Position numbers: made by a program | Assembly (NCBI RefSeq): GCF_013315695.1 | Contig: NZ_CP054353.1 | DNA from: Escherichia coli | GTDB lineage: Bacteria > Pseudomonadota > Gammaproteobacteria > Enterobacterales > Enterobacteriaceae | Direction: 5' to 3' (one strand) | Length of the DNA: 64,000 bases | Part shown: positions 6,001 to 9,000 of the stretch, piece by piece | How the letters are laid out: each line of letters opens with the position of its first letter | Numbering within the stretch: position 1 is the first letter of the stretch

Positions 6001-9000
6001 CGCTGGGCGTGGTATTACCGGTATTACCGACGACGCCGTTTATCCTGCTGGCGGCCTGGTGCTTTGCCCGTTCTTCCCCGCGCTTTCATGCCTGGTTGCT
6101 GTACCGCTCATGGTTTGGCAGCTATCTACGTTTCTGGCAGAAACATCATGCGATGCCGCGCGGCGTCAAACCGCGGGCGATTTTGCTTATTTTGCTCACG
6201 TTTGCCATTTCTCTGTGGTTCGTCCAGATGCCATGGGTGCGCATCATGTTGCTGGTAATTCTCGCCTGTTTGCTTTTCTATATGTGGCGAATTCCGGTGA
6301 TTGATGAAAAGCAAGAAAAGCACTGAAGCACAACAATCGCAGTTGCAATTATTGCGTACAGCCAGTACATTCTGGCGTTTTCGAGCACAGGCGCAGGCGG
6401 TCAAAGGTTAAACAACTGTTACTTTTGATACGTTTAAAACGCGCCGTGAGTACCACCGTAACAAGCAGGCATACACTTATGACCGCGACTGCACAGCAGC
6501 TTGAGTATCTCAAAAATAGCATCAAAAGCATTCAGGACTACCCAAAACCCGGCATTCTTTTCCGCGATGTCACCAGCTTACTGGAAGACCCGAAAGCTTA
6601 CGCTCTCAGCATCGACTTGCTGGTTGAGCGTTACAAAAATGCGGGCATTACCAAAGTTGTCGGCACCGAAGCGCGTGGCTTCTTGTTTGGCGCTCCGGTA
6701 GCACTGGGTCTGGGCGTTGGCTTTGTACCGGTCCGTAAACCGGGCAAACTGCCGCGTGAAACCATCAGTGAAACTTACGACCTGGAATACGGCACCGATC
6801 AGCTGGAAATCCACGTTGGTGCCATCAAACCGGGCGACAAAGTTCTGGTGGTGGACGATCTGCTGGCAACCGGCGGCACTATCGAAGCGACCGTTAAACT
6901 GATCCGTCGTCTGGGTGGTGAAGTAGCTGACGCTGCGTTCATTATCAACCTGTTCGATCTCGGCGGCGAGCAGCGTCTCGAAAAACAGGGCATTACCAGC
7001 TACAGCCTTGTCCCGTTCCCGGGCCATTAATTATCGCCAGTCTTGTGCTGCCCACGCTACGGACAGCACAAGATGTGCATTCAGCCTCGCCGTTCTGACG
7101 GGGCTGTGTTAGCATTACCCCTTCGTGAATCCACCTTCCAGCGTTTCAGAGCCTGCCAATGAGTTATCAGGTCTTAGCCCGAAAATGGCGCCCACAAACC
7201 TTTGCTGACGTCGTCGGCCAGGAACATGTGCTGACCGCACTGGCGAACGGCTTGTCGTTAGGGCGTATTCATCATGCTTATCTTTTTTCCGGTACCCGTG
7301 GCGTCGGAAAAACCTCTATCGCCCGACTGCTGGCGAAGGGGCTAAACTGCGAAACCGGCATTACCGCGACGCCGTGCGGCGTGTGCGATAACTGTCGTGA
7401 AATCGAGCAGGGGCGCTTTGTCGATCTGATTGAAATCGACGCCGCCTCGCGCACTAAAGTTGAAGACACTCGCGACCTGCTGGATAACGTCCAGTACGCT
7501 CCGGCGCGTGGTCGTTTCAAAGTTTATCTGATCGACGAAGTGCATATGCTGTCGCGCCACAGCTTTAACGCACTGTTAAAAACCCTTGAAGAGCCGCCGG
7601 AGCACGTTAAGTTTCTGCTGGCGACGACCGATCCGCAGAAATTGCCGGTGACGATTTTGTCGCGCTGTCTGCAATTTCATCTCAAGGCGCTGGATGTCGA
7701 GCAAATTCGCCATCAGCTTGAGCACATCCTCAACGAAGAACATATCGCTCACGAGCCGCGGGCGCTGCAATTGCTGGCACGCGCCGCTGAAGGCAGCCTG
7801 CGAGATGCCTTAAGTCTGACCGACCAGGCGATTGCCAGCGGTGACGGCCAGGTTTCAACTCAGGCGGTCAGTGCGATGCTGGGTACGCTTGACGACGATC
7901 AGGCGCTGTCGCTGGTTGAAGCGATGGTTGAAGCCAACGGCGAGCGTGTAATGGCGCTAATTAATGAAGCTGCTGCCCGTGGTATCGAGTGGGAAGCGTT
8001 GCTGGTGGAAATGCTCGGTCTGTTGCATCGTATTGCGATGGTACAACTTTCGCCTGCTGCACTTGGCAACGACATGGCCGCCATCGAGCTGCGGATGCGT
8101 GAACTGGCGCGCACCATACCGCCGACGGATATTCAGCTTTACTATCAGACGCTGTTGATTGGTCGCAAAGAATTACCGTATGCGCCGGACCGCCGTATGG
8201 GCGTTGAGATGACGCTTCTGCGCGCGCTGGCGTTCCATCCACGTATGCCTCTGCCTGAGCCAGAAGTGCCACGCCAGTCCTTTGCGCCCGTCGCGCCAAC
8301 GGCAGTAATGACGCCAACCCAGGTGCCGCCGCAACCGCAATCAGCGCCGCAGCAGGCACCGACTGTACCGCTCCCGGAAACCACCAGCCAGGTGCTGGCG
8401 GCGCGCCAGCAGTTGCAGCGCGTGCAGGGAGCAACCAAAGCAAAAAAGAGTGAACCGGCAGCCGCTACCCGCGCGCGGCCGGTGAATAACGCTGCGCTGG
8501 AAAGACTGGCTTCGGTCACCGATCGCGTTCAGGCGCGCCCGGTGCCATCGGCGCTGGAAAAAGCGCCAGCCAAAAAAGAAGCGTATCGCTGGAAGGCGAC
8601 CACTCCAGTGATGCAGCAAAAAGAAGTGGTCGCCACGCCGAAGGCGCTGAAAAAAGCGCTGGAACATGAAAAAACGCCGGAACTGGCGGCGAAGCTGGCG
8701 GCAGAAGCCATTGAGCGCGACCCGTGGGCGGCTCAGGTGAGTCAACTTTCGCTACCAAAACTGGTCGAACAGGTGGCGTTAAATGCCTGGAAAGAGGAGA
8801 GCGACAACGCAGTATGTCTGCATTTGCGCTCCTCTCAGCGGCATTTGAACAACCGCGGCGCACAGCAAAAACTGGCTGAAGCGTTGAGCACGTTAAAAGG
8901 TTCAACGGTTGAACTGACTATCGTTGAAGATGATAATCCCGCGGTGCGTACGCCGCTGGAATGGCGTCAGGCGATATACGAAGAAAAACTTGCGCAGGCG

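What the first reader, a model, noticed from the sequence alone, without database searches (positions are those of the whole stretch)
8442..8484. dnaX tau/gamma programmed -1 frameshift signal is present
The classic A AAA AAG heptamer with a downstream stem-loop is intact. It is a known feature, recorded here for completeness.
Basis: established knowledge. Interest (0 to 1): 0.15.

Follow-up and report, generated by a model that had tools for sequence, protein, structure and literature searches.

The report
Standard E. coli dnaX frameshift signal

Summary
The window carries a 643-codon dnaX gene (7159..9090, + strand). The heptamer A AAA AAG lies at 8442..8448, in the X XXY YYZ phase of that reading frame (codons 429-430). 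A -1 shift reads GAG then UGA (8448..8453) and gives a 431-residue gamma ending ...KAKKE. An 11-bp stem-loop lies at 8454..8483.

Rfam's DnaX frameshifting element (RF00382) matches 8423..8487 over its full length at 96.8 bits (threshold 35). The 101 nt around the site are identical to K-12 MG1655. The nearest differences from K-12 are at 8286 and 8538. The element is present in 5424 of 5426 complete E. coli genomes.

In 62 distinct dnaX sequences from other Enterobacterales plus the window, the stem is kept with compensatory changes; the closing A-U becomes G-C in 19 of the 63.

Nothing differs from the known system, so this is already known and of low interest.

Side observations: two IS1 copies, each with its own A AAA AAC frameshift site, one of them disrupting fsr; and an intact 6119-codon adhesin ORF.

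The parts
7159..9090 (+). dnaX zero-frame ORF, which encodes tau (643 aa plus stop)
   Evidence: ORF list and translation. NCBIfam PRK07994 at 982 bits. Pfam domains: AAA/delta2 20-178, lid 182-230, gamma domain III 232-358, tau domain IV 417-498, tau domain V 500-640. 98.45% nt identity and 1 aa difference (T578 here, M in K-12).
7159..8453 (+). gamma coding region: zero frame through codon 430 (ends at 8448), a -1 slip so that base 8448 is read twice, then GAG (8448..8450) and UGA (8451..8453); the product is 431 aa ending KAKKE
   Evidence: Constructed and translated. The end coincides with the K-12 annotated two-piece gamma CDS, 492092..493386, which maps to window 8453.
8423..8487 (+). 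Full extent of the Rfam RF00382 DnaX ribosomal frameshifting element
   Evidence: cmscan: 96.8 bits (gathering score 35), E = 2.1e-21, model positions 1-65 of 65. The same 65 nt are annotated in RefSeq for MS 21-1.
8426..8431 (+). Internal Shine-Dalgarno-like stimulator AGGGAG, 10 nt upstream of the heptamer
   Evidence: Position and spacing. Identical to K-12. The role of this element is taken from the literature (PMC5389563, PMC5009743).
8442..8448 (+). Slippery heptamer A AAA AAG (zero-frame Lys429-Lys430)
   Evidence: offset 1283 from the ATG, 2 mod 3.
8448..8453 (+). -1 frame Glu codon GAG followed by the UGA stop that terminates gamma
8454..8483 (+). Stimulatory stem-loop: 11 bp (6 bp lower stem ACCGGC/GCCGGU, bulged A, 2 bp, bulged C, 3 bp, 5-nt loop). 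It starts 5 nt after the heptamer at the A-U pair, or 6 nt at the first C-G pair.
   Evidence: MFE fold of -19.7 kcal/mol. Same pairs as the Rfam consensus structure. Pairing kept in 87-90% of cells across 63 distinct Enterobacterales sequences, with compensatory changes at 5 pairs, against 29-53% for slid controls.

Best explanation
This is the canonical E. coli dnaX programmed -1 ribosomal frameshift cassette. Ribosomes translating dnaX reach Lys codons AAA AAG (8443..8448) in the P and A sites. The AGGGAG 10 nt upstream pairs with the 3' end of 16S rRNA, and the G+C-rich stem-loop starting about 6 nt downstream sits at the mRNA entrance and impedes translocation. Under that strain the two tRNA-Lys slip back one base onto A AAA AA, where pairing is as good or better. 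The next codon read is GAG (Glu), then UGA. The slipped ribosomes therefore make gamma (431 aa, clamp-loader domains I-III), which lacks nearly all of tau domain IV (DnaB binding) and all of domain V (binding to the polymerase alpha subunit). Ribosomes that do not slip make full-length tau (643 aa).

Shown here: the presence, phase, spacing and sequence identity of all three elements, the -1 stop, and evolutionary maintenance of the stem. Inferred from published work on the identical K-12 sequence: that slipping occurs, its roughly 50% efficiency, and what each element contributes.
For: Heptamer in X XXY YYZ phase of a full-length dnaX ORF.
-1 frame gives GAG UGA and a 431-aa product, matching the K-12 annotated gamma CDS end.
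AGGGAG lies 10 nt upstream.
The stem-loop folds at -19.7 kcal/mol, in the top 0.7% of windows.
RF00382 matches full-length at 96.8 bits.
101 nt are identical to K-12, with no difference from K-12 between 8287 and 8537, although the gene has 30 substitutions elsewhere.
dnaX is found in 5424 of 5426 complete E. coli genomes, and the 121-nt piece around the site is at least 99% identical in 5401 of them.
76 dnaX loci from other Enterobacterales (62 distinct sequences; 63 with the window) keep the helix. The closing pair is A-U in 42 and G-C in 19. There are single G-C to A-U switches at inner pairs, and two alternative apex architectures that both pair.
The frameshift point falls 14 residues into Pfam tau domain IV, so the shift removes the tau-specific domains.
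Literature on this exact cassette: about 50% of ribosomes shift and terminate one codon later (PMC5009743). Mutating the slippery site, hairpin or SD lowers frameshifting from 84% to 2%, 20% and 50% in vitro (PMC5389563).
Against: Nothing in the sequence argues against it. Three limits apply. No expression or protein data exist for this particular strain. The cross-species set was collected with a pattern that required AGGGAG-N10-AAAAAAGAGTGA, so it can only test the stem, not conservation of the SD, heptamer or stop. The A-U to G-C switch, though seen in 19 sequences, probably reflects few evolutionary events (Erwiniaceae and Buttiauxella-like lineages).
Confidence: 0.97

Rival explanations
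1. Chance co-occurrence: a Lys-Lys codon pair in the lysine- and alanine-rich tau linker that happens to sit next to a G+C-rich hairpin, with no recoding.
For: AAAAAAG by itself is not enriched in the window: 14 found against 9.2 expected. Another AAAAAAG in dnaX, at 8572, also has a strong downstream hairpin (-19.2 kcal/mol) without being a known signal.
Against: Only the 8442 copy has the right phase, the SD at 10 nt and an immediate -1 stop. It gives a full-length Rfam match at E = 2e-21. It is identical to the experimentally characterised K-12 cassette (PMC5389563). The stem is maintained with compensatory changes across genera, whereas the heptamer and hairpin at 8572 are not conserved outside Escherichia.
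Confidence: 0.01
2. Gamma is made by transcriptional slippage of RNA polymerase on the A run, as in Thermus thermophilus dnaX, rather than by ribosomal slippage.
For: The site contains a homopolymeric A run, and transcriptional slippage is a documented route to gamma in another bacterium (PMC5009743).
Against: The run is only 6 A. The review describes efficient bacterial transcriptional slippage on runs of 9 A or T. The flanking SD-like element and the hairpin at ribosome-scale spacings, and their conservation, are features of ribosomal frameshifting. Published mutagenesis of the identical cassette fits ribosomal slippage.
Confidence: 0.01
3. The hairpin's main role is something else, such as a transcription terminator or attenuator, or an RNA-processing site inside dnaX, and the short product arises from truncated mRNA or from proteolysis of tau as in Caulobacter.
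For: Proteolytic generation of gamma exists in Caulobacter crescentus (PMC5009743). The hairpin is strong.
Against: No T run follows the stem, and the terminator scan of 6900..9400 reports nothing at 8454..8483 on the + strand. The stem sits at the spacing used by frameshift stimulators. The -1 stop directly after the heptamer is invariant in the homologues, although it was selected for by the search pattern.
Confidence: 0.01

Closest known systems
E. coli K-12 dnaX tau/gamma -1 programmed ribosomal frameshift cassette (Rfam RF00382)
   Same: Everything tested matches: gene, heptamer, phase, AGGGAG at 10 nt, the 11-bp stem-loop, the GAG-UGA -1 terminator and the 431-aa gamma. 101 nt are 100% identical, within a 251-nt stretch with no difference from K-12.
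   Different: Nothing within the signal. Elsewhere the gene differs from K-12 by 30 substitutions, one of them non-synonymous (T578 here, M in K-12), all at least 90 nt away from the signal.
IS1 insA-insB' -1 frameshift (A AAA AAC)
   Same: Also a tandem-lysine-type A-rich heptamer used for -1 frameshifting in E. coli. Two copies lie in this same window (19229..19235 and 55123..55129), in X XXY YYZ phase of insA.
   Different: The heptamer ends in C, not G. By established knowledge its efficiency is low and the shift extends the protein (InsAB' transposase) instead of truncating it. It did not match the DnaX Rfam model.
Thermus thermophilus dnaX (transcriptional slippage) and Caulobacter dnaX (proteolysis)
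   Same: The same biological outcome: one dnaX gene gives both tau and a shorter gamma (PMC5009743).
   Different: Different mechanisms. Thermus uses a longer A run and RNA polymerase slippage; Caulobacter cleaves tau. The window has the ribosomal-frameshift architecture instead.

Membership tests
DnaX ribosomal frameshifting element (Rfam RF00382; E. coli-type dnaX -1 PRF cassette) | Located inside a dnaX (DNA polymerase III tau/gamma) coding sequence | tested here: met
   NCBIfam PRK07994 at 982 bits against a cut-off of 613. Pfam gamma and tau domains. Synteny apt-dnaX-ybaB-recR.
DnaX ribosomal frameshifting element (Rfam RF00382; E. coli-type dnaX -1 PRF cassette) | Slippery heptamer A AAA AAG in X XXY YYZ phase of the zero frame | tested here: met
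   8442..8448; the offset from the ATG is 2 mod 3, so the codons read GCA AAA AAG.
DnaX ribosomal frameshifting element (Rfam RF00382; E. coli-type dnaX -1 PRF cassette) | A stop codon in the -1 frame right after the shift site, so that the shifted product (gamma) is the truncated one | tested here: met
   GAG UGA at 8448..8453 and a gamma of 431 aa. This matches the K-12 annotated gamma CDS end.
DnaX ribosomal frameshifting element (Rfam RF00382; E. coli-type dnaX -1 PRF cassette) | Internal Shine-Dalgarno-like sequence about 10 nt 5' of the heptamer | tested here: met
   AGGGAG at 8426..8431 with a 10-nt spacer.
DnaX ribosomal frameshifting element (Rfam RF00382; E. coli-type dnaX -1 PRF cassette) | Stable stem-loop about 6 nt 3' of the heptamer | tested here: met
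   8454..8483, 11 bp, -19.7 kcal/mol. The structure equals the Rfam consensus. Covariation across 63 distinct sequences.
DnaX ribosomal frameshifting element (Rfam RF00382; E. coli-type dnaX -1 PRF cassette) | Score above the family's curated covariance-model threshold | tested here: met
   96.8 bits against a gathering score of 35, full length 1-65 of 65.
DnaX ribosomal frameshifting element (Rfam RF00382; E. coli-type dnaX -1 PRF cassette) | Actual -1 frameshifting at about 50% efficiency, producing gamma in vivo | not testable with these tools
   Established for the identical K-12 sequence (PMC5009743 and PMC5389563). Not measured for this strain.
DnaX ribosomal frameshifting element (Rfam RF00382; E. 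coli-type dnaX -1 PRF cassette) | The host decodes AAA and AAG with a single tRNA-Lys (mnm5s2U34), which makes A AAA AAG especially slippery | not tested
   The 64-kb window has no tRNA genes. The property is established for E. coli (PMC5009743), and the window is E. coli (99.96% identical to strain MS 21-1 over the first 18.9 kb).

The most novel reading that the evidence does not exclude
The most novel reading not excluded concerns a different site. The second AAAAAAG in dnaX (8572..8578) is followed by an unusually stable hairpin (about 8581..8617, -19.2 kcal/mol). This could be an Escherichia-specific pausing or low-level recoding site inside the tau-only region. For the dnaX frameshift signal itself, nothing novel remains possible at the sequence level, because it is identical to K-12.
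Probability: 0.03. Interest if true: 0.35.

Novelty: already known. Interest (0 to 1): 0.05.

Why it matters
It matters only as correct annotation. The window's dnaX should be annotated with two products, tau at 7159..9090 and gamma at 7159..8448 joined to 8448..8453. The A-run must not be mistaken for a sequencing error or a pseudogene signature. The tau:gamma ratio set by this signal determines the composition of the DNA polymerase III clamp loader. That biology has been established for decades, and this copy adds nothing new to it.

Tried and rejected
1. I asked whether the heptamer alone is significant. It is not: 14 copies against 9.2 expected. The argument therefore rests on the composite signal.

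2. I checked the other two AAAAAAG copies in dnaX, at 8572 and 8650. Both are in phase 0 (AAA AAA G), not X XXY YYZ, and neither has an SD-like sequence upstream. The strong hairpin after 8572 (-19.2 kcal/mol here, -18.5 in K-12) is limited to Escherichia, and the heptamer itself is not conserved in other genera. I rejected it as a second conserved signal.

3. The genome-wide pattern scan returned about 35 Collinsella loci with the exact motif. In the one locus examined (L036) the motif lies at the 5' end of an rpoD-like sigma-factor ORF downstream of dnaG, not in dnaX. The AGGGAG there probably acts as the initiation SD for a nearby GTG or ATG start. I rejected this as a single-lineage coincidence, multiplied by the many near-identical Collinsella species in the collection.

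4. I tested a terminator reading of the hairpin. No T tract follows the stem, and the terminator scan reports nothing there.

5. A sub-threshold Rfam hit to STnc460 at 8941..9030 (26 bits against a threshold of 70) was dismissed as chance.

6. The two apex pairings (E. coli type and Enterobacter/Pantoea type) were scored separately. Neither fits all species; each fits about half. The lower 8 pairs are common to both.

Full report
**Observation**

Reading 8300..8660 shows gcAAAAAAGagtgaACCGGCAGCCGCTACCCGCGCGCGGCCGGTgaat. The heptamer AAAAAAG occupies 8442..8448. The only long ORF over it is 7159..9090 on the + strand: 643 codons with an ATG start. The heptamer starts 1283 nt after the ATG, which is 2 mod 3. 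The zero frame therefore reads GCA AAA AAG, and the heptamer has the X XXY YYZ phase needed for tandem -1 slippage.

**The other elements of the signal**

- In the -1 frame the next codons are GAG UGA (8448..8453). A shifted ribosome therefore adds one Glu and stops, giving a 431-residue product ending KAKKE.
- AGGGAG lies at 8426..8431, exactly 10 nt before the heptamer.
- Bases 8449..8490 fold to -19.7 kcal/mol. The helix is an 11-bp interrupted stem at 8454..8483.
- That stability is z = -2.6 against dinucleotide shuffles. Only 0.7% of all 42-nt windows of the 64 kb, and 0.6% of those within dnaX, fold as well.

**More than chance**

The heptamer alone is not enriched: 14 copies against 9.2 expected. 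Among the 14 copies, only the one at 8442 combines an SD-like motif at 10 nt, a strong hairpin about 6 nt downstream and a -1 stop after one codon. Rfam's covariance model for the DnaX ribosomal frameshifting element (RF00382) matches 8423..8487 end to end at 96.8 bits. The gathering score is 35, and E = 2e-21. The predicted pairs equal the family consensus.

**Identity of the gene and the comparison with K-12**

- The protein matches NCBIfam PRK07994, DNA polymerase III subunit gamma/tau, at 982 bits.
- Pfam places the ATPase, lid and domain III at residues 20-358, tau domain IV (DnaB binding) at 417-498, and tau domain V (alpha binding) at 500-640. Termination at residue 431 therefore removes the tau-specific functions.
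- The gene sits in the K-12 order apt-dnaX-ybaB-recR-htpG.
- Against K-12 MG1655 the gene has 30 substitutions (98.45% identity) and one amino-acid change (T578 here, M in K-12). There is no difference between 8287 and 8537, and 8400..8500 aligns at 100%.
- K-12's annotated two-piece gamma CDS ends at the position equivalent to window 8453.
- RefSeq annotates the same 65 nt as 'DnaX frameshifting element' in strain MS 21-1, whose dnaX is 100% identical to the window's.

**Related sequences**

dnaX is found in 5424 of 5426 complete E. coli genomes. The 121 nt around the site are at least 99% identical in 5401 of them.

I scanned one genome per species with AGGGAG-N10-AAAAAAGAGTGA.

- 76 of them are dnaX of Enterobacterales, including Citrobacter, Enterobacter, Kosakonia, Pantoea, Erwinia, Serratia, Buttiauxella and Mixta. 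They give 62 distinct 70-nt sequences, 63 with the window.
- Because the pattern fixes the SD, spacing, heptamer and stop, this set can only test the stem.
- On the E. coli (Rfam) structure, 87.4% of cells pair, against 29-53% when the 3' partners are slid by 1-3 columns. Five of the 11 pairs show changes on both sides.
- The closing pair is A-U in 42 sequences and G-C in 19. Pair 36-57 is A-U in Mixta (L023).
- The apex exists in two forms: E. coli/Citrobacter type and Enterobacter/Pantoea type. Each pairs in about half of the sequences, while the lower 8 pairs are shared.
- The A-to-G change at column 32 is synonymous (GAA to GAG). Its partner change at column 61 alters the tau codon from Val to Ala. 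This fits selection on the RNA helix.
- The number of independent evolutionary events behind these changes is probably small.

**Mechanism**

Shown here: all three cis elements, their spacing, the phase and the -1 stop. The rest is taken from work on the identical sequence.

- The heptamer, the SD and the hairpin together slow EF-G-driven translocation of the two tRNA-Lys.
- In vitro frameshifting falls from 84% to 2% when the heptamer is changed to G AAG AAG, to 20% without the hairpin, and to 50% with the SD mutated (PMC5389563).
- E. coli's single tRNA-Lys pairs better with AAA than with AAG, which favours the slip (PMC5009743).

**Rivals**

- Chance is excluded by the Rfam score, by identity with the characterised cassette and by conservation.
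- Transcriptional slippage (Thermus type) is unlikely on a 6-A run, since the review describes runs of 9.
- A terminator role is unsupported: no T tract follows the stem, and the scan reports nothing at that site.
- Proteolysis (Caulobacter type) cannot be excluded from sequence as an additional route, but it is not needed.

**Verdict**

The finding is correct, complete apart from the upstream SD, and entirely ordinary. It is already known and of low interest.

**Seen in passing**

- The window is 99.96% identical to E. coli MS 21-1 over its first 18.9 kb. It carries two extra, identical 768-bp IS1 copies with 9-bp target duplications, at 18923..19690 (inside fsr) and 54817..55584.
- The fsr::IS1 junction is shared by only 2 of 5426 complete genomes.
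- Each IS1 has its own known A AAA AAC frameshift heptamer, in phase with insA.
- A 6119-codon adhesin ORF (32375..50734) is intact here but is annotated as a pseudogene in MS 21-1.

Noticed in passing
window 18923..19690 and 54817..55584: Two identical 768-bp IS1 copies in the same orientation, with 9-bp target-site duplications (CAGAATGCT and TGAATCATT). Both are absent from the otherwise near-identical strain MS 21-1. The first interrupts fsr (fosmidomycin MFS transporter). That junction occurs in only 2 of 5426 complete E. coli genomes (NZ_OZ547117.1 and MSB1_4I NZ_LR898874.1), which are therefore the closest relatives of the window's source.
   Followed up: yes
window 19229..19235 and 55123..55129: Each IS1 copy carries the other classic E. 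coli -1 frameshift heptamer, A AAA AAC, in X XXY YYZ phase of insA (18978..19253), upstream of the overlapping insB' frame. The window therefore holds three known programmed -1 frameshift sites, not one.
   Followed up: partly
window 8572..8620: A second AAAAAAG in dnaX is followed by a very stable hairpin (-19.2 kcal/mol here, -18.5 in K-12). It is in phase 0 (AAA AAA G) and has no SD upstream. Neither the heptamer nor the hairpin is conserved outside Escherichia (other genera fold at -6 to -16 kcal/mol, with one exception at -17.6, L113, or lack the A-run altogether). It is probably incidental.
   Followed up: partly
window 32375..50734 (+), with flanks 30917..32272 and about 50738..54100: An intact 6119-codon ORF corresponds to the 'BapA-related adhesin SiiEA', which is annotated as a pseudogene (internal stop) in MS 21-1. 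It is flanked by a TolC-family gene and type I secretion genes (ABC permease/ATPase and HlyD adaptor). It contains long internal repeats about 75% identical to each other, and its repeat content differs from MS 21-1.
   Followed up: partly
L036 8474..9835 (Collinsella sp. AM34-10), and about 35 other Collinsella loci: The exact dnaX-like motif AGGGAG-N10-A AAA AAG-AG-UGA occurs at codons 7-9 of an rpoD-like sigma-factor ORF just downstream of dnaG (checked in L036). The heptamer is even in X XXY YYZ phase if translation starts at the ATG. The AGGGAG more likely acts as the initiation Shine-Dalgarno for a nearby start, so this is probably a coincidence shared by one lineage.
   Followed up: partly
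L053 (Candidatus Pantoea persica), dnaX frameshift region: This insect-symbiont dnaX keeps AGGGAG, the 10-nt spacer, A AAA AAG and GAG UGA. The long stem is replaced by a much shorter sequence (GCCGGCAGCGTCGGC), which suggests a deletion of most of the stimulatory hairpin.
   Followed up: no
window about 24076..25101 (by collinearity with MS 21-1), and 22894..22977: An IS110-family transposase gene lies between copA and ybaP. The sRNA gene sroB (Rfam RF00368, 81 bits) is at 22894..22977.
   Followed up: no
window 7159..9090: This dnaX allele is at least 99% identical to only 24 of 5424 complete E. coli genomes and 95-99% identical to the rest, so the window comes from a sparsely sampled lineage. 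The frameshift region is nevertheless invariant.
   Followed up: partly
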